Origin: a virus | Taxonomy: Duplodnaviria > Heunggongvirae > Uroviricota > Caudoviricetes | DNA length: 12,505 bases | Virus record (IMG/VR): IMGVR_UViG_2778261350_000008 | Coordinates: 1-12,505 of that record | Strand: one strand, 5' to 3' | Part shown: positions 2,640 to 12,505 of the stretch, in pieces | Layout of the letters: every line of letters begins with the position of its first letter | Position numbering within the stretch: the first letter of the stretch is position 1 | Position numbers and translations under genes: made by a program | The notes under the pieces: model-generated | What the model was told of the DNA's origin: nothing | Database searches by the model: none | Seen by the model: the letters and a program-made list of their open reading frames with translations, nothing else

Positions 2640-5600
2640 ATGGGTAAAGGTGGTGGTAAGGCGCATACGCCCCGTGAAGCCAGAGATAATCTGAAATCAT
2701 CCCAGATGCTGAGTGTGATTGATGCCATCAGCGAAGGACCGGTTTACGGGCCTGTTGACGGGCTGAAAAGCGTGTTTCTGAACGGCACGCCGGTACTGGA
2801 CCGTGAGGGGAATGCTAACTTTTCCGGTGTCACTGTGGTGTTCCGTGCCGGTGAACAGGAGCAGACACCACCGGAGGGCTTTGAATCCTCCGGTTCAGAA
2901 ACGGTGCTGGGGACGGAAGTGAAATATGACACGCCGATCACCCGGACCATCACGTCGGCAAATATCGATCGTCTGCGCCTGACCTTCGGCGTGCAGGCAC
3001 TGGTGGAAACCACCTCAAAGGGGGACCGTAACCCCTCTTCTGTCCGCCTGCTGGTTCAGATACAGCGTAACGGTGGCTGGGTGACGGAAAAAGACATCAC
3101 CATTAAGGGCAAAACCACGTCCCAGTATCTGGCCTCGGTGGTGGTGGATAACCTGCCGCCGCGACCGTTCAGTATCCGGATGCGCAGGATGACGCCGGAC
3201 AGCACCACAGACCAGTTACAGAACAAAACGCTCTGGTCGTCATACACTGAAATCATCGATGTGAAACAGTGCTACCCGAACACGGCACTGGTCGGCGTAC
3301 AGGTGGACTCGGAGCAGTTCGGCAGTCAGCAGGTGAGCCGCACTTACCATTTTCGGGGGCGTATTCTGCAGGTGCCGTCGAACTATAACCCGCAGACGCG
3401 GCAGTACAGTGGTATCTGGGACGGAACACTTAAACCGGCATACAGCAACAACCCGGCCTGGTGTCTGTGGGACATGCTGACCCATCCGCGCTACGGCATG
3501 GGGAAACGTCTTGGTGCGGCGGATGTGGACAAATGGGCGCTGTATGTCATCGGCCAGTACTGCGACCAGTCAGTGCCGGACGGCTTTGGTGGCACGGAGC
3601 CGCGCATCACCTGTAATGCCTGGCTGACCACACAGCGTAAGGCGTGGGATGTTCTCAGCGATTTCTGCTCGGCGATGCGCTGTATGCCGGTATGGAACGG
3701 GCAGACGCTGACGTTCGTGCAGGACCGGCCGTCGGATAAGGTGTGGACCTATAACCGAAGTAATGTGGTGATGCCGGATGATGGCGCTCCGTTCCGCTAC
3801 AGCTTCAGCGCCCTGAAGGACCGCCATAATGCCGTTGAGGTGAACTGGAGTGACCCGGATAACGGCCAGGAGACGGCGACAGAGCTTGTGGAGGACACAC
3901 AGGCCATTGCCCGTTACGGTCGTAACGTCACGAAGATGGATGCCTTTGGCTGTACCAGCCGGGGGCAGGCACACCGCGCCGGGCTGTGGCTGATTAAAAC
4001 AGAACTGCTGGAAACGCAGACCGTGGATTTCAGCGTCGGCGCAGAAGGGCTTCGCCATGTACCGGGCGATGTTATTGAAATCTGTGATGATGACTATGCG
4101 GGGATCAGCACCGGTGGTCGTGTGCTGGCGGTGAACAGCCAGACCCGGACGCTGACGCTCGACCGTGAAATCACGCTGCCATCCTCCGGCACCACGCTGA
4201 TAAGCCTGGTTGACGGAAGTGGCAATCCGGTCAGCGTGGAGGTTCAGTCCGTCACCGACGGTGTGAAGGTGAAAGTGAGCCGTGTTCCTGACGGCGTTGC
4301 AGAATACAGCGTGTGGGGGCTGAAGCTGCCGACGCTGCGCCAGCGCCTGTTCCGCTGCGTCAGTATCCGTGAGAACGATGACGGCACGTATGCCATCACC
4401 GCCGTGCAGCATGTACCGGAAAAAGAAGCCATCGTGGATAACGGGGCGCACTTTGACGGTGACCAGAGCGGCACGGTGAATGGTGTCACGCCGCCGGCAG
4501 TGCAGCATCTGACCGCCGAAGTCACCGCAGACAGCGGGGAATACCAGGTGCTGGCGCGATGGGACACGCCGAAGGTGGTGAAGGGTGTGAGCTTCCTGCT
4601 TCGTCTGACCGTGGCAGCGGACGACGGCAGTGAGCGGCTGGTCAGCACAGCCAGGACGACGGAAACCACATACCGCTTCAGGCAGCTGGCGCTGGGGCGT
4701 TACACGCTGACGGTACGGGCGGTAAATGCCCAGGGGCAGCAGGGGGATCCGGCGTCGGTATCGTTCCGGATTGCCGCACCGGCAGCGCCGTCACGGATTG
4801 AGCTGACGCCGGGCTATTTTCAGATAACCGCCACGCCGCATCTTGCGGTTTATGATCCGACGGTACAGTTTGAGTTCTGGTTCTCGGAAAAGCGGATTGC
4901 GGATATCAGGCAGGTTGAAACCACAGCCCGCTATCTTGGCACGGCGCTGTACTGGATAGCTGCCAGTATCAATATCAAACCGGGCCATGATTATTACTTT
5001 TATATCCGCAGTGTGAACACCGTTGGCAAATCGGCATTCGTGGAGGCTGTTGGTCAGCCGAGTGATGATCCATCCGGCTATCTGGATTTTTTCAAAGGAG
5101 AGATAGGGAAAACCCATCTGGCTCAGGAGCTGTGGACGCAGATTGATAACAGTCAGCTTGCGCCTGACCTGGCTGAAATCAGGACGTCCATTACGGGTGT
5201 CAGCAATGAAATCACGCAGACTGTCAATAAGACACTGGAAGACCAGAGTGCAGCGATCCAGCAGATACAGAAGGTTCAGGTTGATACCAGTAATGACCTG
5301 AACAGCATGTGGGCTGTGAAGCTGCAACAGATGAAGGACGGACGCCTTTATATCGCGGGTATTGGTGCCGGTATTGGGAACACCCCCGACGGCATGCAGA
5401 GTCAGGTGCTGCTGGCGGCAGACAGGATTGCGATGATTAATCCTGCAAATGGCAACACAAAGCCGATGTTTGTGGGGCAGGGCGATCAGATATTCATGAA
5501 CGACGTGTTCCTGAAATATCTGACGGCTCCCACCATTACCAGTGGTGGTAATCCTCCGGCATTTTCCCTGACACCGGACGGGCGGCTGACGGCGAAAAAT

Positions 5601-6119
5601 GCGGATATCAGCGGTAACGTGAACGCGAACTCCGGGACGCTCAACAATGTCACGATTAATCAGAACTGCCGGATTCTGGGAAAACTGTCAGCCAATCAGA
5701 TTGAAGGCGATCTCGTTAAAACAGTGGGCAAAGCTTTCCCGCGGGACTCCCGTGCACCGGAGCGGTGGCCATCAGGGACCATTACCGTCAGGATTTATGA
5801 CGATCAGCCGTTTGACCGGCAGATTGTTATTCCGGCGGTGGCTTTCCGCGGTGCCAGACATGAGCGGGAGAATAGCGATACTTATTCGTCATGCCGTCTG
5901 ATAGTGAAGAAAAACGGTGCTGAAATTTATAACCGAACGGCTCTGGATAATACGCTGATTTACACGGGTGTTATTGATATGCCTGCAGGCAGTGGCGTAA
6001 TGACACTGGAGTTTTCTGTATCAGCATGGTGGGTAAATGGCTGGTATCCCACAGCGAGTATCAGCGATTTGCTGGTTGTTGTGATGAAGAAATCCACTGC
6101 AGGCATCACGATTAGCTGA
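2640..6119 (+). CDS. J: Tail tip / host-specificity protein J (central tail fibre)
   Basis: 1159-aa ORF (lambda J is 1132 aa) directly after I. GGAG lies 9 nt upstream of the ATG. Position and size are diagnostic; the divergent C-terminal ~250 aa would be the receptor-binding part. Confidence 0.9.
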
Positions 6120-6137
6120 ATTTTATAACCCAGATAC

Positions 6138-6163
6138 GGGCGCCAGAAATGGCGCCTTTTTTA
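6138..6163 (+). terminator. Rho-independent terminator after J
   Basis: Perfect palindromic stem GGCGCC (6139-6144) / GGCGCC (6151-6156) with loop AGAAAT, immediately followed by TTTTTTATT. Confidence 0.6.
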
Positions 6164-6186
6164 TTACAGAAAAGCGAGAGGTAATT

Positions 6187-6786
6187 ATGCGTAAAGTTTG
6201 TGCCGCCATTTTGTCCGCTGCCATCTGTCTGGTCGTATCCGGTGCGCCTGCATGGGCGTCTGAGCAGCAGGCCACACTGAGTGCAGGGTATCTTCATGCC
6301 CGGACGAACGCTCCCGGCAGCGATAATCTGAACGGGATTAACGTGAAATACCGTTATGAGTTTACGGACACGCTGGGGCTGATTACGTCCTTCAGTTATG
6401 CCAGTGCCGAAGATGAGCGAAAAACGCACTACAGCGATACCCGCTGGCATGAAGATTCCGTGCGTAACCGCTGGTTCAGCGTGATGGCGGGGCCGTCTGT
6501 GCGCGTGAATGAATGGTTCAGCGCGTATGCGATGGCGGGTATGGCTTACAGCCGGGTGTCGACTTTTTCCGGGGATTATCTCCGCGTAGCTGACAACACG
6601 GGGAAAACGCACGATGTGCTGACCGGAAGTGCTGACGGTCGCCACAGCAACACGTCTCTGGCGTGGGGCGCTGGCGTGCAGTTTAACCCGACCGAATCCG
6701 TGGCCATTGATGTCGCTTATGAAGGTTCCGGCAGTGGCGACTGGCGTACTGACGGTTTCATCGTGGGTGTTGGTTATAAATTCTGA
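6187..6786 (+). CDS. lom: Lom / Ail / PagC-family outer-membrane beta-barrel protein (lysogenic-conversion type)
   Basis: 199 aa. N-terminal signal peptide MRKVCAAILSAAICLVVSGAPAWA. The C-terminus ...VDVAYEGSGSGDWRTDGFIVGVGYKF matches the lambda Lom C-terminus as recalled. GAGAGG RBS; lambda-like position after J. Confidence 0.85.
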   Translation: MRKVCAAILSAAICLVVSGAPAWASEQQATLSAGYLHARTNAPGSDNLNGINVKYRYEFTDTLGLITSFSYASAEDERKTHYSDTRWHEDSVRNRWFSVMAGPSVRVNEWFSAYAMAGMAYSRVSTFSGDYLRVADNTGKTHDVLTGSADGRHSNTSLAWGAGVQFNPTESVAIDVAYEGSGSGDWRTDGFIVGVGYKF

Positions 6787-6808
6787 TTGTTAACACAGCT
6801 TTACGACA

Positions 6809-6835
6809 GCCCGCCGGTTCAGGCGGGCTTTTTTG
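6809..6835 (+). terminator. Rho-independent terminator after lom
   Basis: Stem GCCCGCC (6809-6815) / GGCGGGC (6822-6828), loop GGTTCA, followed by TTTTTTG. Confidence 0.6.
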
Positions 6836-6845
6836 TGGGGTGAAT

Positions 6846-9200
6846 ATGGCAGTAAAGATTTCAGGTGTACTGAAAGATGGTGCAGGTAAGCCGGTACAAA
6901 ACTGCACTATTCAACTGAAAGCCAGACGTAACAGCACCACGGTGGTGGTGAACACGGTGGCCTCAGAAAATCCGGATGAAGCAGGTCGTTACAGCATGGA
7001 TGTTGAGTACGGTCAGTACAGCGTCAGTCTGTTGGTGGAGGGGTTCCCGCCGTCACATGCCGGGACCATCACCGTCTATGAAGATTCCCGACCCGGTACG
7101 CTGAATGATTTTCTCGGTGCCATGACGGAGGATGATGCCCGTCCGGAGGCACTGCGGCGTTTTGAACTGATGGTGGAAGAAGCGGCACGTAACGCTGAAG
7201 CCGCCTCTAAGAGCGCAGCGGCGGCAAAGAAATCCGAAACTGCAGCGGCATCATCGAAGAACGCGGCGAAAACCTCAGAAACGAATGCAGCTAACAGCGC
7301 ACAGGCGGCAGCGACCTCACAGACTGCATCAGCAAACTCCGCGACAGCAGCCAAAAAATCAGAAACCAACGCGAAAAACAGCGAGACAGCCGCAAAGACG
7401 AGTGAAACTAACGCAAAGTCCAGCCAGACGGCAGCGAAGACCAGCGAAACGAATGCCAAAGCCAGTGAAACTGCGGCGAAAAGCAGTCAGGATGCAGCAG
7501 CCGAAAGCGAGAGTGCTGCAGCCGGTTCTGCGACTTCAGCAGCTGGATCAGCAACTGCTGCGGCTAACAGCCAGAAAGCCGCGAAGACGAGCGAAACTAA
7601 CGCAAAGTCCAGCCAGACGGCAGCGAAGACCAGCGAAACGAATGCCAAAGCCAGCGAAACTGCGGCGAAAAACAGTCAGGATGCAGCAGCCCAAAGCGAG
7701 AGTGCCGCAGCTGGTTCTGCAACAGCGGCAGCTAATAGCCAAAAAGCTGCAAAAACCAGTGAAACTAACGCAAAGACGAGTGAAACAAAAGCAGCAGCCA
7801 GCGAGACAGAAGCAACGTCAGCCGCAACAAGAGCAGAGAATGCAGCCCGGATTGCAGAAGATGCCGCTGATCCTGCTTCTGTCCCTCCGCTTCCTGATAT
7901 CTGGCTACCCTTGAATGATTCTCTGGAAGCGATAACAGGGTATGCCCCGGGCTATAAAACAATAACCATCGGCAGTGATGAAATAACAATGCCTGTTAAT
8001 GGCATATGCCAATTTAGCCGGGCTTCATCTGCAACGTATATTGATAAGTCCGGGCATATTACCGTGGCAGGGAATAACGTTCCTCGTTTTGAAAAATATG
8101 GTTTGCTGATAGAGAATCAGCGAACAAACATGTTCGTAAATAGTTTTAATCCTGATGCCTGGAATAAAAGCGGTGGTATATCTGTAACATCATCAACAGA
8201 TGAATTTGAGTTTAAATATGGACGTTTCACGGTAGGAAGCGATATAGCAGGAACGACAACAGGGCGAAATATATGCACAGTTGCTGGTAACAAAGGCATA
8301 GATGTGACTGGCGATGAACAGTACAGTAAAGGTCCGTATGTTACCGCGTCGTTCAGGGTAAGAAGTGATCTCAATGTTCGCGCACGTATCCGTTTTGAAC
8401 GGTATAACTCGGAAGGATACACCTTCCTTTGCGACGCCTATTTGTCATTACAGACCCATGAACTACAAATTACTGGTGGCAATGCCCAGCTATTAACAGC
8501 AAACTTTGAAATCGATCCAGGTAGTGGATGGATATATTTTCAGGCAACACTGAAATGTCTGCCAGAATGGGGAATGGTTGGTACGCAGCTGCAAATTGCA
8601 GCCGACAGAGCAGTGGGGGCTTTTGCAACAGGTGACTGGATAGAAGTAACCACCCCGCAATTCGAGTATGGTGCCTGTGCAACTTCCTTTATCATAACGA
8701 CAACAGAGCCAGCGACTCGTGCATCAGATTTATGTAAATTTCCGCTGATGAAAAATATGTATACCATGCCTTTTACGTTCATGGTGGAAGTCCATAAAAA
8801 CTGGTTTATTTCTCATAATGCTGCACCGCGTGTCATTGATTCAGAAAATCACCAGTCCGGAGGCCCATTTATTATGGGGTTTGGTTCTTCTGGAACTATC
8901 AGTCAGGATGGTTATTCGTATTGCGATATAGGCGGGGCTAACCGGCGTGTATATGAGTCATGCGGAGTAAGAGATCTCGTTATGGGATTCAGGGTTAAGG
9001 CTGACGGCATGACATGCTCATTTGCAAATAAGAATATAAGCACTGAAACCAAAACAGTATGGAAATATATTCGTGAAGCAGCCGTGATTCGTATCGGGGG
9101 GCAAACGACGACAGGATTACGACACCTTAATGGTCATATAAAAAACCTCCGTTTCTGGAACAGAGCATTGTCAGATACGCAGATTAAGGAATACGTATAA
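6846..9200 (+). CDS. stf: Side tail fibre protein, mosaic: lambda Stf-like N-terminus, Ala/Ser/Thr repeat shaft, foreign C-terminal receptor-binding region with a lectin-like (LamG/ConA-type) end
   Basis: N-terminus MAVKISGVLKDGAGKPVQNCTIQLKARRNSTTVVVN...VYEDSRPGTLNDFLGAMTEDDARPEALRRFELMVEE matches lambda Stf as recalled. The ORF track begins at a GTG (6840); the ATG at 6846 gives the lambda-like start. Residues ~120-330 are low-complexity SETNAK-type repeats. From about nt 7880 the DNA is visibly AT-richer, and the protein ends ...LRHLNGHIKNLRFWNRALSDTQIKEYV, which resembles the terminal strand motif of LamG-like jelly-roll domains. Confidence 0.8.
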   Translation: MAVKISGVLKDGAGKPVQNCTIQLKARRNSTTVVVNTVASENPDEAGRYSMDVEYGQYSVSLLVEGFPPSHAGTITVYEDSRPGTLNDFLGAMTEDDARPEALRRFELMVEEAARNAEAASKSAAAAKKSETAAASSKNAAKTSETNAANSAQAAATSQTASANSATAAKKSETNAKNSETAAKTSETNAKSSQTAAKTSETNAKASETAAKSSQDAAAESESAAAGSATSAAGSATAAANSQKAAKTSETNAKSSQTAAKTSETNAKASETAAKNSQDAAAQSESAAAGSATAAANSQKAAKTSETNAKTSETKAAASETEATSAATRAENAARIAEDAADPASVPPLPDIWLPLNDSLEAITGYAPGYKTITIGSDEITMPVNGICQFSRASSATYIDKSGHITVAGNNVPRFEKYGLLIENQRTNMFVNSFNPDAWNKSGGISVTSSTDEFEFKYGRFTVGSDIAGTTTGRNICTVAGNKGIDVTGDEQYSKGPYVTASFRVRSDLNVRARIRFERYNSEGYTFLCDAYLSLQTHELQITGGNAQLLTANFEIDPGSGWIYFQATLKCLPEWGMVGTQLQIAADRAVGAFATGDWIEVTTPQFEYGACATSFIITTTEPATRASDLCKFPLMKNMYTMPFTFMVEVHKNWFISHNAAPRVIDSENHQSGGPFIMGFGSSGTISQDGYSYCDIGGANRRVYESCGVRDLVMGFRVKADGMTCSFANKNISTETKTVWKYIREAAVIRIGGQTTTGLRHLNGHIKNLRFWNRALSDTQIKEYV
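7392..7748. repeat. In-frame tandem duplication inside the stf shaft (two units of about 189 and 168 bp)
   Basis: 7392-7580 and 7581-7748 are near-identical; unit 1 carries an extra 21 bp (7 aa, SAAGSAT). Each encodes AAKTSETNAKSSQTAAKTSETNAKASETAAK(S/N)SQDAAA(E/Q)SESAAAGSAT...AAANSQKA. Shorter, degenerate copies of the same motif flank it from about 7230 to 7800. Confidence 0.7.
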
Positions 9201-9469
9201 TGCGGGATATAACATTACGATTCGATAACAGAGAACAGTTTAACGCAATTGTATATGACAGTGGCCTGTTCAGTCTTGAAGAAGAAAATGGGATTCTTGT
9301 TGATGTTATTGGCGGCATTATTGATTACGAGGAGCCAGAAAACGAAAGATGTACAGGCATTGATCGCGGTGGTTTTTTCGTAAACATGAGGATTGTTGAT
9401 GGCAGTAAAAACATATCTTCTTTAATGCCTTTCATTACGACAGATCAGCATGTAAGGACATGGGCTTAA
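9200..9469 (+). CDS. Hypothetical 89-aa acidic protein, start-coupled to stf (candidate cognate fibre chaperone or accessory protein)
   Basis: Its ATG overlaps the stf stop (TAATG at 9198-9202). AAGGAA lies 8 nt upstream. AT-rich like the stf 3' half. I recognise no homologue. The same frame stays open for 39 codons after its TAA. Confidence 0.45.
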   Translation: MRDITLRFDNREQFNAIVYDSGLFSLEEENGILVDVIGGIIDYEEPENERCTGIDRGGFFVNMRIVDGSKNISSLMPFITTDQHVRTWA

Positions 9470-9593
9470 TGGAGCTTGCTTGTTCAGGTAGCCAGAGAAT
9501 CAGACGACAGAATAACAGCACTGGAAGAAGAAAACGCAGAATTAAGACAAAGATTATCTGCAATTGAGGCGGCGCTTGCGTCTGAATAATATT

Positions 9594-9618
9594 AAGGGGC
9601 CGAGCGCCCCGTTTTATT
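9594..9618 (+). terminator. Terminator-like hairpin ending the stf / small-ORF transcription unit
   Basis: Stem GGGGC (9596-9600) / GCCCC (9606-9610), loop CGAGC, followed by GTTTTATT. Confidence 0.45.
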
Positions 9619-9631
9619 GGGTAGGATGAAA

Positions 9632-9925
9632 ATGGATATAACACCTTTCCTTCATGCACTTTGTGCTGTGGCTGCGCAGGTACTGATTGGCCTTTTTACC
9701 GGAAACTGGGTTTACGGTGCGATAGCTGGTTGTACGTTCTTCATTGCGCGGGAACACACCCAGGCAGAATATTGCTGGATTGAAATGTTCGGGCATGGCA
9801 AGCGAATGAATATGCCGTGGTGGGGCGGTTTTGATCCGCGTGCTTGGGATGTGGCAAGCCTGATGGATTTTGCTGTGCCGGTGGTGGCGTGTCTGCTGGT
9901 CTGGCTGTTGGTTAATCGTGGGTGA
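9632..9925 (+). CDS. Hypothetical small inner-membrane protein with two predicted TM helices (prophage cargo candidate)
   Basis: MDITPFLHALCAVAAQVLIGLFTGNWVYGAIAGCTFFIA...DVASLMDFAVPVVACLLVWLLVNRG: two hydrophobic segments flank a charged, Trp-rich loop (EHTQAEYCWIEMFGHGKRMNMPWWGGFDPRAWD). AGGA lies 6 nt before the ATG at 9632. In-frame alternatives are ATG 9626 and TTG 9617. Codon use looks coding-like. No homologue recognised. Confidence 0.55.
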   Translation: MDITPFLHALCAVAAQVLIGLFTGNWVYGAIAGCTFFIAREHTQAEYCWIEMFGHGKRMNMPWWGGFDPRAWDVASLMDFAVPVVACLLVWLLVNRG

Positions 9926-9935
9926 AAAAAGGTGA

Positions 9936-10057
9936 GCTGTATATGCAACGGAGGAAGAAACCCCGTTGCTGGCGGCATGGAAGAAGTATCGGGTGCTGCT
10001 CAACCGAACTATACATCAGTAGCTCCGGACATTGAGTGGCCTGTACAACCGGAATAA
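9936..10057 (+). pseudogene. tfa: 3' remnant of a lambda-type tail fibre assembly gene (tfa), truncated and frameshifted
   Basis: One frame reads [28 protein letters not shown]. A second frame continues YTSVAPDIEWPVQPE* (ATG-initiated MEEVSGAAQPNYTSVAPDIEWPVQPE at 9977-10057). Together these match the lambda Tfa C-terminus as I recall it (...[36 protein letters not shown]...). No N-terminal portion is present; the segment begins right after the stop of the membrane-protein gene. Confidence 0.6.
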
Positions 10058-10079
10058 ATATCAGGAGGAGTAATTAATC

Positions 10080-11215
10080 GTGTCGACTCTGATTTCCGGC
10101 GTATTAAAAGATGGTGCAGGTATACCGCTGGCTGCCAGATTATCCTGAAATCCCGTGTAAACACCTCAGATGTGGTGATGTCTGTTGTTGCGCATATTGT
10201 AACCGGGCAAAACGGGGAATATGCGTTTGAGGCCCGGACGGGGAAGTACAGCGTTTATCTGAAGACTGACTGGCGTAATGAGTTTCAGGTTGGTGTTATT
10301 TCTGTTTATGAGGACTCACAACCGGGCACACTGAACGACTTCCTGATAGCAGTGAGTGATGCTGATTTGAAGCCGGACGTTCTGCGGCGGTTCGATGAGC
10401 TGGCGAGGCGTGTCCATGAAGACGCGAACAGCGCAGAACAGTTTGCCGGAGATGCCCGTCGTGCTGTGGATGAACTGGGCGGTAAGGTTCAGGACGATAT
10501 TCGTGACCGTACACCGGACCGTCTGGCTCTGCCCGGTGCTTACGGCTTCGGCGGAATATTCAGCCGCTCGGAAGCTCTGTCGTTTCAGGGGGTATCTGAT
10601 TTTGGTGCGTGGCTACAGAAAGCCACGCCGGGGCGTTATCCGGTCACTGTTGCGGATTCTTCTGCATTGCTGTTGGGCACCACGAAATTTAACGGCAACA
10701 TTGATGTGCTGTGGTCACCCTTTGATAACGACGGGTCGGACACAGCGCACAAATTCAAAACGCTGTTGTGTTACAACGAGCCACGTGCCGGAGAGCACGG
10801 GCTACACCTGCTCCAGTACTGGTACGAGGGCGACAACCTGCGGGTTGCGGGCAGTATGATAGTCTGCGACGCTCCGTCGCTGGCGACACTGCTGTCAGCA
10901 ACAGCGGGAGCGGACCCGTCAGGGTTCTACCGTTATCCGGCGGTGGGTTCCCTGTTGCTGGCAGCGTACCACGGGGCATCTGCCGGTGCTGGCGGGGTGA
11001 GTATTGCAACAGGCGACGTTGTTCCGGGCTCCTGTCTGGGGCCGGTGAGTATTCCGTGCGCGGTGAACGAAGGCGGCACAACTCCGTCGCCGCTGCGGGC
11101 GTTTGTTGGTGGTGCCGGACAGTACAATTTCCCCGGACGTTACCAGGCGTTATCCGGTGCAAATAATGTCCGTGGAAACAATGGGTTTATCTGTCTGTTT
11201 GTGCGCGTTGAGTAG
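10080..11215 (+). pseudogene. Second tail fibre gene (Stf N-terminal paralogue), disrupted by a 1-nt frameshift near 10131-10133
   Basis: The GTG at 10080 (GGAGGAG upstream) opens a frame reading VSTLISGVLKDGAGIPLAARLS*, which stops at 10146-10148. The -1 frame continues ...CQIILKSRVNTSDVV and joins the 347-aa ORF 10172..11215. The joined product aligns with the stf N-terminus (ISGVLKDGAG ; C-Q/T-I-x-LK ; VYEDSQPGTLNDFL ; LRRF-EL). The C-terminal part is Gly/Ala-rich and GC-rich. Confidence 0.6.
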
Positions 11216-11222
11216 GTGAGAA

Positions 11223-11816
11223 ATGAACGCAGTAAAAGATATTCGCAATCCGGTGCATCTCGGAAACGGCGCGGTTGACTGTGAGGTGCTGTTTGAGGGG
11301 CGCAGCGAGTACGTTGTTTATACGGCTGCGCCGGGCGACGCAGCCCCGACAGGTCAGCGTATCTGGCAGGAACTACAGAGCGGCAAATGGGGCGAAATTG
11401 CCCCGTTCACGGCCACGCCGGAACTGATAGCGGCGGCGAAGGATGCAAAACGTCAGGAAATTGAGGTGTGGCGTACCGAACAGGAAGCGCAGTCGTTCAC
11501 GTTTGAGTGGAACGGTCGAACCTGGAACGCGGGGCCGTCCTCACTGGCCCGGCTCACGCCTGCGATTACGGCGGCGGAATACGCCGGCGAGCAGGCTGTT
11601 ACCTGGAGCGATACAACCAACGAGCCGGTAAACCTGACAGTGCAGGAACTGAAATCGCTGGCCGTCGCACTGGCTCAGGCACTCTCTGAGCGGAACAACG
11701 CGATTTATCGTCGCCAGCGGGAGATGAAGGATACGTTAAACACCCTGGAGAATCTGGCAGAGGTGCAGGCGTTTAAGGTTGGAGAACAATCTATATTGGG
11801 GGTAAGCCGTATTTAG
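11223..11816 (+). CDS. Putative tail fibre assembly / chaperone protein (assigned by position)
   Basis: 197-aa ORF 8 bp after the stf2 stop, with AGGTGAG RBS. Contains a W-N-G-x-(T/A)-W motif ([11 protein letters not shown]) reminiscent of Tfa proteins (lambda Tfa has WNGTAW), but it lacks the lambda-type Tfa C-terminus seen in the remnant at 9936-10057. Confidence 0.5.
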
Positions 11817-12120
11817 CTCTTGCGCGGTTACACGCCTCATTGACGACGCCGTTCTCGCCAGACATGGCGAATTCTCTGCATGTGGATGATCGATTTTCAT
11901 ATATCGTGCAGCAGGCATTTTTGCCCGGAGTTCCAGCAAGGGCAACACATCTGGGGTTTTTCTGGTTTGTACCGATCATGCATCGGTGAAAAGGCGATAC
12001 TTGTTCAGTAAGTCTGGCGGGAATGGTGCCGCCGGCATCGTCGGCTTCGGCCCAGTAAAAAGAGACGCGGAAAAATGCACAACAGGCGCCACACGTCATG
12101 CATGGATTCAGATTGCTCAT
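11791..12120 (-). CDS. ykgJ: YkgJ-family cysteine-cluster protein (putative Zn/Fe-binding; UPF0153)
   Basis: 109 aa, beginning [25 protein letters not shown], i.e. the C-x2-C-G-x-C-C signature of the YkgJ family, with further C-terminal Cys residues ([17 protein letters not shown]). Convergent with tfa2 and overlapping it by 26 bp. Confidence 0.65.
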
Positions 12121-12139
12121 AATTCACCAGTACAGCTAT

Positions 12140-12188
12140 AAATCATAAAGAAAACAGCGGTACGTCGTATGAAAGAACTTACCGCTGT
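12140..12188 (-). terminator. Possible minus-strand terminator downstream of the DinI-like gene
   Basis: Inverted repeat ACAGCGGTA (12154-12162) / TACCGCTGT (12180-12188). On the minus strand it is followed by TTTTCTTTATGATTT. The 17-nt loop is large, hence the low confidence. Confidence 0.3.
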
Positions 12189-12256
12189 TGGCTGGTGAAC
12201 TTTTCGATAGTGCGAGTATTGAATGATTTCCAGCCGTTACCGATTTTACTCGTTAA

Positions 12257-12505
12257 TTAGCGAACAAACCACTCGTCAGCAGACTCCCAGGTATCTTTCA
12301 GCGTCTCCTGAACAAAAGTTTTTGCAGAATCTTTATCGGCGGTGCGAGTAACTGAAAGGCCATCGTTGCTGGTGGCTTTTATGATCACTTCTACATCGTC
12401 ATAACGCTTACTGATGCGTCGGGTTAATTCTTCCTTTAACGCATCCACAGCACCGTTTGGCATTTTAGTCATTTTTTCTTTGGCTATGCAGATCTCAATA
12501 CGCAT
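12257..12505 (-). CDS. DinI-family protein (DNA-damage-inducible protein I-like; modulator of RecA filament activity)
   Basis: 82 aa, [31 protein letters not shown]...[16 protein letters not shown]. Co-linear with E. coli DinI as recalled (MRIEVTIAK...AIDAL..EL.RRI...ETWESADDWFV). The ATG is the last three bases of the window (minus strand), so the promoter lies outside. Confidence 0.85.

What the first reader, a model, noticed from the sequence alone, without database searches (positions are those of the whole stretch)
9936..10057. Fossil 3' end of a lambda-type tfa gene
Two adjacent frames spell ...[21 protein letters not shown]... and ...YTSVAPDIEWPVQPE*, which I recognise as the conserved Tfa C-terminus. 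There is no N-terminal part and a frameshift lies between the pieces. This dates the upstream insertion and shows the ancestral chaperone is non-functional, so the new fibre must fold without it or use another factor.
Basis: partly seen in the sequence, partly recalled or inferred. Interest (0 to 1): 0.5.

Follow-up and report, generated by a model that had tools for sequence, protein, structure and literature searches.

The report
Truncated tfa pseudogene, recombination scar
This is a real but dead leftover of the last 38 codons of a phage tail-fibre chaperone gene, a scar that a third of E. coli genomes share and that RefSeq already annotates as a pseudogene, so it is ordinary.

Summary
Window 9944-10057 is the 3' end of a lambda-type tfa gene: 83-84% nt identity to lambda tfa (E 5e-20), and Pfam Caudo_TAP positions 95-131/131 (E 2e-13) once the frame is repaired. 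A 1-nt deletion lies between 10010 and 10011. Codons 1-155 occur nowhere in the window. RefSeq (PGAP) already annotates 9945-10057 as a frameshifted tfa pseudogene lacking its N-terminus.

The fossil is neither local nor recent. The same left junction, directly after a 97-aa membrane-protein gene, occurs in 1739 of 5426 complete E. coli genomes and in plaque-forming lambdoid phages. The 3' half varies between lineages and is collinear with different intact or partial tfa copies (K-12 tfaD, K-12 tfaX).

In this window the remnant has three parts:
- 9926-9972 matches the common remnant.
- 9973-10036 is an allele found nowhere else.
- 10037 onward, including the stop codon, belongs to a 2.5-kb second-fibre module. 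That module follows an intact tfa in a Mu-like E. coli prophage.

So this is one old truncation, later reshuffled by recombination inside the conserved tfa 3' end. It cannot date the upstream replacement. That the upstream fibre needs no Tfa is plausible but untested. Interest is low.

The parts
9926..9943 (+). Spacer between the stop codon of the 97-aa gene and clear tfa homology. It may be degenerate tfa sequence (GAGCTGTATAT against tfaD GATCTGGAAAT).
   Evidence: Identical in nearly all relatives. Weak extension of the alignment to K-12 tfaD from 9934. The frame carries TGA at 9933-9935, so nothing reads through from upstream.
9944..9972 (+). Remnant part 1: tfa codons about 156-165 (ATEEETPLL). 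This is the 5' piece common to all remnants linked to the 97-aa gene.
   Evidence: 9926-9972 is 100% identical to strain 582, 98% to phage 2G7b and 96% to HannyBb. The same junction is found in 48 relatives and in 1739 of 5426 E. coli genomes.
9973..10036 (+). Remnant part 2: tfa codons about 166-187 ([12 protein letters not shown] / TSVAPDIE) from a different tfa allele. It contains the 1-nt deletion between 10010 and 10011.
   Evidence: Only 72-77% identical to 582, 2G7b, HannyBb and lambda, and 50% to the Mu-like tfa. The best non-self E. coli hit is about 82%. No donor was found. The gap is placed.
10037..10057 (+). Remnant part 3: the last about 6 codons and the TAA stop (WPVQPE*). It is continuous with the downstream stf2 module.
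   Evidence: blastn: window 10037-12505 matches L089 4958-7430 at 96.7% over 2473 nt. L089 4958 lies inside an intact 196-aa Tfa gene (4388-4978) of a Mu-like prophage.
9632..9925 (+). Gene for a 97-aa hydrophobic protein (PHROG 1443, function unknown). It is the constant left neighbour of the remnant.
   Evidence: PHROG 1443 at E 1.8e-57; no Pfam, NCBIfam or PADLOC hit. 295 relatives in IMG/VR. Hydrophobic segments at aa 3-27 and 72-96.
9596..9610 (+). Terminator-like GC hairpin followed by a T run, lying between the fibre genes and the 97-aa gene.
   Evidence: Consensus scan only.
9476..9589 (+). Second fossil: the last 37 codons of a 346-aa tail-fibre gene. The rest is removed by a 932-bp deletion at 9474.
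   Evidence: PHROG 4563 positions 310-345 of 346, E 5.6e-15. The window joins strain 582 positions 4073 and 5006. PGAP annotates it as a pseudogene.
9200..9469 (+). 89-aa ORF (PHROG 1361, unknown) whose ATG overlaps the stf stop (TAATG). It is a candidate fibre helper or adaptor by position only.
   Evidence: No family hit. The AF2 model is unusable, pLDDT 46.5.
6840..9200 (+). Side tail fibre of 786 aa: lambda-Stf N-terminus, 7-aa repeats, and an unrelated C-terminal half with a domain like the GTA head-spike fibre.
   Evidence: PF08400 at aa 3-133, E 3.7e-70. Full-length PHROG 1419. NF048003 at aa 423-628. DNA homology to lambda ends at about 7195-7288.
10080..11215 (+). Second stf-type fibre gene (stf2), disrupted by a 4-nt deletion near 10126-10130.
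   Evidence: An intact 379-aa homologue, P0001, is 96% identical. Alignment CCGCT----GGCTGCC against CCGCTGGCGGGCTGCC. PF08400 match begins at model position 34.
11223..11816 (+). 197-aa DUF4376 protein, the partner gene of stf2 in both the lambdoid and the Mu-like prophage.
   Evidence: PF14301 at E 1.5e-16. PHROG 1141. Same gene order in L089.

Best explanation
Window 9944-10057 is a non-functional remnant of a lambda-type tail fibre assembly gene (tfa): its last 38 or so codons, which are part of the conserved C-terminal domain.

Origin (inferred). One old illegitimate replacement in a lambda-like phage swapped the middle and C-terminal part of stf, together with tfa codons 1-155, for a different fibre module. 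That module consists of a new Stf C-terminus, an 89-aa gene, a second fibre gene and a 97-aa membrane-protein gene. Only the tfa tail was left behind.

Later history (the pattern is shown; the mechanism is inferred). The tfa tail is conserved at the DNA level among otherwise unrelated tfa genes, and E. coli genomes carry a median of 3 copies of it. The remnant has therefore served repeatedly as a short substrate for homologous recombination. These events join the fibre module to different downstream DNA and replace the remnant's own 3' half.

In this prophage one such event fused it, within the last few codons, to a second fibre module (stf2-DUF4376-YkgJ-DinI). That module sits behind an intact tfa in a Mu-like prophage.

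The 1-nt deletion at 10010/10011 is a late and inconsequential mutation in DNA that was already dead. It accompanies two other decay events in the region: a 932-bp deletion of the second fibre gene and a 4-nt deletion in stf2.
For: Identity as a tfa 3' end. PGAP gives the same annotation at 9945-10057.

Not expressible as a Tfa:
- TGA lies in frame at 9933-9935, and the N-terminal fibre-binding domain is absent from the whole window.

Single old origin:
- The junction TGAAAAAAGGTGAGCTGTATA|TGCAACGGAGG is identical in 48 of the 55 relatives with enough downstream sequence.
- It is present in 1739 of 5426 E. coli genomes, at 3276 places.
- A strongly decayed variant (L056, L058, L059) still carries lambda's own post-tfa sequence TAATCGTTTTGTGATATGC.
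- Homology to lambda is limited to 6659-7195, 26 nt at 7263-7288, and 9944-10043.

Recombination inside the remnant:
- The 2G7b remnant and 1.1 kb downstream match the K-12 tfaD 3' end through ybcY to tfaX at 96.8%.
- The strain 582 remnant and 1.4 kb downstream match the K-12 tfaX 3' end through appY at 98.8%.
- Pseudogene-specific changes (L>R, W>R, W>L) each occur with two or more different 3' ends.
- The window shows a three-part identity profile of 100%, 72-77% and 86-97%.
- An intact Tfa lies directly upstream of stf2 in the Mu-like prophage L089.

Relaxed constraint:
- Within-type polymorphisms are 21 nonsynonymous to 11 synonymous. They include a nonsense change at the conserved Trp, and other relatives carry a frameshift or truncations by sitABCD and an IS element.

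Plausibility of the mechanism:
- Lambda recombines with the stf/tfa homologies of the Rac and Qin prophages (88-96% identical) in experiments (PMC3945230).
- Tfa proteins have a variable N-terminal domain and a conserved C-terminal domain (PMC9608196).
Against: - The donor of the middle segment 9973-10036 was not found. The three-part model therefore rests on identity profiles and not on an identified parent.
- The crossover with the Mu-like module falls in only about 7-10 nt of shared sequence (TGGCCTG..AC). It could be microhomology-mediated and not homologous, or it could have occurred further upstream in an unsampled allele.
- Most remnants keep an open frame through to the natural stop. 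That is expected for 37 codons at low divergence, but it does not exclude weak selection.
- The N:S count is crude and is confounded by recombination.
- No expression data were available.
Confidence: 0.85

Rival explanations
1. One reading: the tfa of this particular prophage was truncated and frameshifted recently, when the new fibre DNA was inserted upstream. On this view the fossil is a local time-stamp for that insertion.
For: The fossil lies at the right edge of the DNA that replaces lambda's stf C-terminus and tfa N-terminus. The 1-nt deletion is confined to 8 nearly identical genomes.
Against: The truncation junction is shared base for base by a third of E. coli genomes and by many isolated phages. 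The frameshifted part (9973-10036) is a different allele from that of the other remnants, and the last 21 nt belong to the downstream Mu-like module. The fossil is therefore not a single ancestral gene decaying in place.
Confidence: 0.04
2. The fragment is kept because it does something. It might encode a mini-peptide with the conserved Tfa C-terminal helix, an sRNA (Rfam IS009-like), the overlapping 30-aa ORF at 9943-10035, or signals for expressing the downstream gene.
For: The remnant is retained in 48 of the 55 checked relatives, mostly with an open frame. There is a sub-threshold Rfam IS009 hit at 9923-10020, E 3.8e-10. An SD-like AAGGTGA lies 8 nt before the ATG at 9943 (read directly from the sequence). 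The stop-proximal AGGAGG at 10062-10067 serves stf2.
Against: - There is no in-frame start and a stop lies just upstream.
- Relatives carry W>stop, W>R and W>L changes, a frameshift, and truncations by sitABCD and an IS.
- The IS009 hit covers only the unpaired 3' part of the model, which is plain tfaD coding sequence, and scores 49.4 against a gathering score of 117.
- The RNA fold z-score is -1.23, which is not unusual.
- No promoter or terminator match lies on the + strand within the remnant.
- The overlapping ORF ends after 19 codons in 2G7b-type remnants, as read from the sequences.
- The SD for stf2 comes with the Mu-like module and not from the remnant.
Confidence: 0.04
3. The remnant is a leftover of an invertible (Gin/Pin/Cin-type) tail-fibre switch, being the tfa copy from one orientation of a former invertible segment.
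For: In phage HannyBb a DNA invertase gene lies about 100 nt downstream of the same remnant. Invertase-linked exchange of stf genes is cited in PMC3945230.
Against: The window has no invertase gene and no significant inverted repeats around 9900-12500; the longest arm is 17-19 nt at 79-89%. The remnant has the same orientation as stf. Most relatives have unrelated downstream DNA (ybcY, appY, sitABCD).
Confidence: 0.03

Closest known systems
Lambda Tfa (orf-194) and E. coli K-12 TfaD: Caudo_TAP tail fibre assembly proteins
   Same: 21 of the 34 tblastn-aligned residues match at 86-90% identity and 13 at 77%, with the conserved motif [10 protein letters not shown]...APDIEWP. Nucleotide identity to lambda is 83-84%. 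The position downstream of a side tail fibre gene is also the same.
   Different: Only the last 38 or so of about 190 codons remain. There is no fibre-binding N-terminal domain and no start codon, and there is a 1-nt deletion. It is a pseudogene, not a family member in the functional sense.
K-12 DLP12 tfaX, and the PGAP 'tail fiber assembly protein, incomplete, missing N-terminus' pseudogenes found in many E. coli prophages
   Same: They are the same kind of object: short 3' fragments of tfa at the cargo end of lambdoid prophages. The strain 582 remnant is collinear with the tfaX 3' end and appY at 98.8%. This exact locus already carries the PGAP pseudogene annotation.
   Different: The window copy has an additional frameshift, a unique middle segment, and a Mu-like fibre module downstream instead of ybcY/appY/ompT.
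Mosaic joints formed by relaxed homologous recombination between temperate phages and defective prophages (De Paepe et al. 2014, PMC3945230)
   Same: A short conserved stretch in stf/tfa acts as the crossover region between otherwise unrelated modules. The exchange partners include prophages resident in the same species.
   Different: Here the exchange is inferred from comparative patterns and was not observed. One partner is a Mu-like myovirus prophage, and the shared stretch at that joint is very short.
Rfam RF02111 (IS009, an E. coli sRNA candidate)
   Same: The 3' 70 positions of the model align to 9950-10020.
   Different: The family maps inside the tfaD coding sequence in K-12. All paired positions are missing here, and the score of 49.4 is far below the gathering score of 117.

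Membership tests
Caudo_TAP tail fibre assembly protein (Pfam PF02413; lambda Tfa family) | Sequence match to the family model above the curated cut-off | tested here: met
   The frameshift-repaired 41-aa translation scores 51 bits against a cut-off of 22.1, E 2e-13. It covers only model positions 95-131 of 131.
Caudo_TAP tail fibre assembly protein (Pfam PF02413; lambda Tfa family) | Complete two-domain protein: a variable N-terminal fibre-binding domain plus the conserved C-terminal domain | tested here: not met
   tblastn with lambda Tfa, TfaD and the Mu-like Tfa finds nothing for residues 1-155 anywhere in the window. Domain organisation is taken from PMC9608196.
Caudo_TAP tail fibre assembly protein (Pfam PF02413; lambda Tfa family) | Uninterrupted ORF with a start codon | tested here: not met
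   There is a TGA at 9933-9935 just upstream and no ATG or GTG in frame. A 1-nt deletion at 10010/10011 splits the remnant across two frames.
Caudo_TAP tail fibre assembly protein (Pfam PF02413; lambda Tfa family) | Chaperone activity on the cognate fibre | not testable with these tools
   This needs co-expression or a phage assembly assay.
Rfam RF02111 IS009 | Covariance-model score at or above the gathering score, with the paired regions present | tested here: not met
   The score is 49.4 against 117, and 122 model positions that include all helices are skipped. The bona fide K-12 copy scores 227.8 and lies inside tfaD.
Invertible tail-fibre segment (Gin/Pin/Cin type) | Adjacent serine invertase gene and inverted-repeat crossover sites flanking stf-tfa variable parts | tested here: not met
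   There is no invertase ORF in the window and no long inverted repeats. An invertase is present only in some relatives, such as HannyBb.

The most novel reading that the evidence does not exclude
The conserved tfa 3' stub, together with the 97-aa membrane-protein gene to its left, is not mere debris. It would be a maintained 'recombination handle': a portable module boundary whose retention is favoured because it lets lambdoid phages swap the cargo or second-fibre region downstream with any resident tfa-bearing prophage, including Mu-like myoviruses.
Probability: 0.1. Interest if true: 0.4.

Novelty: already known. Interest (0 to 1): 0.1.

Why it matters
It matters little in itself. Truncated tfa genes at the ends of lambdoid prophages are routine, and this one already carries a pseudogene annotation in RefSeq.

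The modest value lies in the comparative picture. One truncation junction is shared by about a third of E. coli genomes, while the 3' half of the stub keeps being exchanged. This is a clean natural illustration of short conserved gene ends acting as crossover points between phage modules, here even between a lambdoid and a Mu-like prophage.

It is also a caution against using such fossils to date neighbouring insertions.

Tried and rejected
- Searching for the donor of stf2 and of the remnant's middle segment. The genome-contig scan with stf2 found nothing. The viral-contig scan found only the same prophage. tblastn against phages gave at most 45% identity. A degenerate pattern for [13 protein letters not shown] found three unrelated intact tfa genes with no DNA similarity to the window. 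Only the large protein search followed by a contig look-up found the Mu-like context.
- Characterising the 89-aa ORF as a possible chaperone. It has no Pfam, NCBIfam or PADLOC hit. The homologue search returned 4 fragments. The single-sequence AF2 model has pLDDT 46.5 and is unusable, so no fold search was run.
- A functional RNA or regulatory reading of the remnant. The Rfam hit is explained by shared tfaD coding sequence. The fold z-score is -1.23. No + strand promoter or terminator lies inside it.
- Fusion or programmed frameshift from the 97-aa gene. The A AAA AAG heptamer lies after its TGA stop, and both alternative frames have stops. Rejected.
- An invertible-segment reading. There are no inverted repeats and no invertase in the window.
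- The literature search for tfaD/tfaX returned only irrelevant papers.

Full report
**What the window is.** Positions 5400-12505 are 100% identical to E. coli KC-Dl-1 (NZ_CP063046), in a lambdoid prophage next to an integrase and dusA. The gene order is as follows:
- J (2640-6119)
- lom (6187-6786)
- a 786-aa side tail fibre (6840-9200)
- an 89-aa ORF (9200-9469)
- a 37-codon stub of a second fibre gene (9476-9589)
- a hairpin (9596-9610)
- a 97-aa membrane-protein gene (9632-9925)
- the finding (9936-10057)
- a second stf-type fibre gene, stf2 (10080-11215)
- a DUF4376 gene (11223-11816)
- YkgJ and DinI-like genes on the minus strand

**Check of the observation.**
- At the DNA level, 9944-10043 aligns to lambda tfa 22437-22537 at 83-84% identity, E 5e-20 to 1e-21 against 2.3 Gb of phage DNA.
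- The only gap is one missing base between 10010 and 10011.
- tblastn puts lambda Tfa residues 156-176 and 179-191 on the two frames and finds no trace of residues 1-155 anywhere in the window.
- The repaired translation matches Pfam Caudo_TAP positions 95-131 of 131 at 51 bits (cut-off 22.1).

RefSeq's PGAP pipeline already annotates 9945-10057 in this genome as 'tail fiber assembly protein; frameshifted; incomplete; missing N-terminus'.

**The fossil is shared, not local.**
- A 121-nt probe spanning the junction between the 97-aa gene and the remnant (9870-9990) is covered at 80% or more in 1739 of 5426 complete E. coli genomes. There are 3276 places in all, mostly at 95-99% identity.
- In IMG/VR, 295 stretches encode the 97-aa protein. 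Of the 55 relatives with enough downstream sequence, 48 have the same junction TGAAAAAAGGTGAGCTGTATA|TGCAACGGAGGAAGAAAC.
- The same arrangement occurs in isolated lambdoid phages: 2G7b, ev243, HannyBb, Tritos, PhiR49_1, PhiR63_1 and 4A7. It consists of an Stf of about 690-810 aa, a small ORF, an optional second fibre, the 97-aa gene and the tfa stub.
- Against lambda, DNA homology covers 6659-7195 (lom 3' end to about stf codon 118), 26 nt at 7263-7288, and then only 9944-10043. The DNA between replaces lambda's stf middle and C-terminus plus tfa codons 1-155.
- A strongly decayed copy of the stub (L056, L058, L059) is still followed by lambda's own post-tfa sequence TAATCGTTTTGTGATATGC. This fits a single old event in a lambda-like ancestor.

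**The 3' half of the stub is exchanged.** The left junction is constant, but at least eight different 3' ends and downstream contexts occur.
- The 2G7b stub and the next 1.1 kb are 96.8% identical to the 3' end of the full-length tfaD of K-12 DLP12, followed by ybcY and tfaX.
- The strain 582 stub and the next 1.4 kb are 98.8% identical to the 3' end of the K-12 tfaX fragment, followed by appY.
- In 4A7-type phages the stub is cut at about window position 10000 and followed by sitABCD. In one contig it is cut by an IS element.
- Changes that can only be pseudogene decay (L>R, W>R and W>L at the conserved Trp) are each found with two or more different 3' ends. That requires crossovers within the 110-nt stub.
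- tfa 3' ends are abundant substrates: 5266 of 5426 genomes have at least one, with a median of 3.
- Experimentally, lambda recombines with the stf/tfa homologies of the Rac and Qin prophages, 88-96% identical, through phage recombinases (PMC3945230).
- The stub belongs to the conserved C-terminal domain of Tfa proteins, while the N-terminal domain is variable and binds the fibre (PMC9608196). This explains why unrelated tfa genes share just this stretch of DNA.

**The copy in this window is a three-part mosaic.**
- 9926-9972 is 100% identical to strain 582.
- 9973-10036, which holds the 1-nt deletion, is only 72-77% identical to every relative and to lambda. The best non-self E. coli hit is about 82%. 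I could not find its donor.
- From 10037 to the end of the window the DNA is 96.7% identical over 2473 nt to contig L089 from an E. coli assembly (aspS 99.9% identical). There the sequence begins inside an intact 196-aa Tfa gene of a Mu-like prophage with Mu gp45-48-type baseplate genes. It continues through the same 22-nt spacer into an intact 379-aa stf2, then DUF4376 and DinI.

The stop codon of the 'fossil' and the Shine-Dalgarno sequence of stf2 therefore came with the downstream module. The joint lies in the last few codons of tfa. Only 8 of 5426 complete E. coli genomes carry this combination, all at 99% identity or more.

**Signs of non-function.**
- The remnant's frame has TGA at 9933-9935 and no ATG or GTG start.
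- The 41-aa ORF at 9932-10057 listed mechanically exists only because of the frameshift.
- Within each 3'-end type, polymorphisms are 21 nonsynonymous to 11 synonymous and include a W>stop. This is a crude count, but it is near the neutral expectation.
- The RNA fold is unremarkable, z = -1.23.
- No promoter or terminator match lies on the + strand inside the remnant.
- The only Rfam signal, IS009 (49.4 bits against a gathering score of 117), arises because that family maps inside the K-12 tfaD coding sequence. The window matches only its unpaired 3' portion.
- The neighbourhood is decaying too. A clean 932-bp deletion at 9474 removes the second fibre gene, and stf2 has a 4-nt deletion near 10126-10130.

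Calling it a tfa fossil is right. It cannot date the upstream replacement, for two reasons. The truncation predates this prophage by a long way, and two thirds of the stub here is later, imported DNA.

The inference that the upstream fibre does without Tfa is reasonable. Its C-terminal half is unrelated to lambda Stf and carries a domain like the GTA head-spike fibre (NF048003). The lost Tfa N-domain is the fibre-specific part. HannyBb, Tritos and PhiR63_1 show no other tfa-3'-like DNA.

It remains untested, because lambda-type phages plate without side fibres. The 89-aa ORF, whose ATG overlaps the stf stop (TAATG), is the positional candidate for a helper. I could not characterise it.

**Verdict.** This is a genuine, statistically solid, non-functional tfa 3' pseudogene fragment that is already annotated. 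It is best understood as an old truncation scar that doubles as a recombination joint between phage modules. Its novelty class is 'already known' and its interest is low.

The most novel reading not excluded is that the stub is maintained as a recombination handle for swapping downstream modules. I give that about 10%.

Noticed in passing
window 9474-9589: A clean 932-bp deletion relative to E. coli strain 582 removes a 346-aa second tail-fibre gene (PHROG 4563). Only its last 37 codons remain, and the junction has at most 1 nt of microhomology.
   Followed up: partly
window 10080-10180 (about 10126-10130): The second stf-type gene has a 4-nt deletion (CCGCT----GGCTGCC against CCGCTGGCGGGCTGCC in the intact 379-aa homologue). 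This frameshifts it after 20 codons. PGAP instead annotates a shortened protein starting at an internal codon.
   Followed up: yes
window 9632-9925: A 97-aa protein with at least two hydrophobic segments (PHROG 1443) has no Pfam, NCBIfam or PADLOC hit. It always sits immediately upstream of the tfa stub and is present in about a third of complete E. coli genomes. It is preceded by a terminator-like hairpin (9596-9610), so it looks like a moron. Its function is unknown.
   Followed up: partly
window 10037-12505 and L089 4958-7430: A 2.47-kb module (stf2, DUF4376, YkgJ-type, DinI-like) is shared at 96.7% identity between two prophages. One is this lambdoid prophage at dusA. The other is a Mu-like myovirus prophage next to yecD/aspS in another E. 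coli. A lambda-type 'prophage tail fibre N-terminal' protein thus sits behind the Mu-like phage's own fibre and tfa.
   Followed up: partly
L088 5857-6055 (K-12 NC_000913.3 581856-582054): Rfam family RF02111 (IS009, an sRNA candidate) maps entirely inside the tfaD coding sequence of the K-12 DLP12 prophage. It will therefore give sub-threshold hits on any tfa 3' end.
   Followed up: yes
window 6840-9200 (repeats 7258-7828): The 786-aa Stf ORF is uninterrupted and matches PHROG 1419 end to end. RefSeq nonetheless splits the identical DNA into an N-terminal 'pseudogene' and a separate 'head spike fiber domain' protein. The middle consists of 21-nt (7-aa) units with a 189-nt tandem duplication.
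   Followed up: partly
window 9943-10035: A 30-aa, very basic ORF (MQRRKKPRCW...) in the other frame of the stub has an SD-like AAGGTGA 8 nt upstream. Its ATG is created at the truncation junction. It ends after 19 codons in 2G7b-type relatives, so it is probably chance.
   Followed up: partly
L006 5092-5818 (phage HannyBb): In HannyBb-type phages a DNA invertase gene lies about 100 nt downstream of the same tfa stub. This suggests that this variant descends from an e14/Mu-like invertible fibre region.
   Followed up: no
window 11791-11816: The 3' ends of the DUF4376 gene (+) and the YkgJ-family gene (-) overlap convergently by 26 nt.
   Followed up: no
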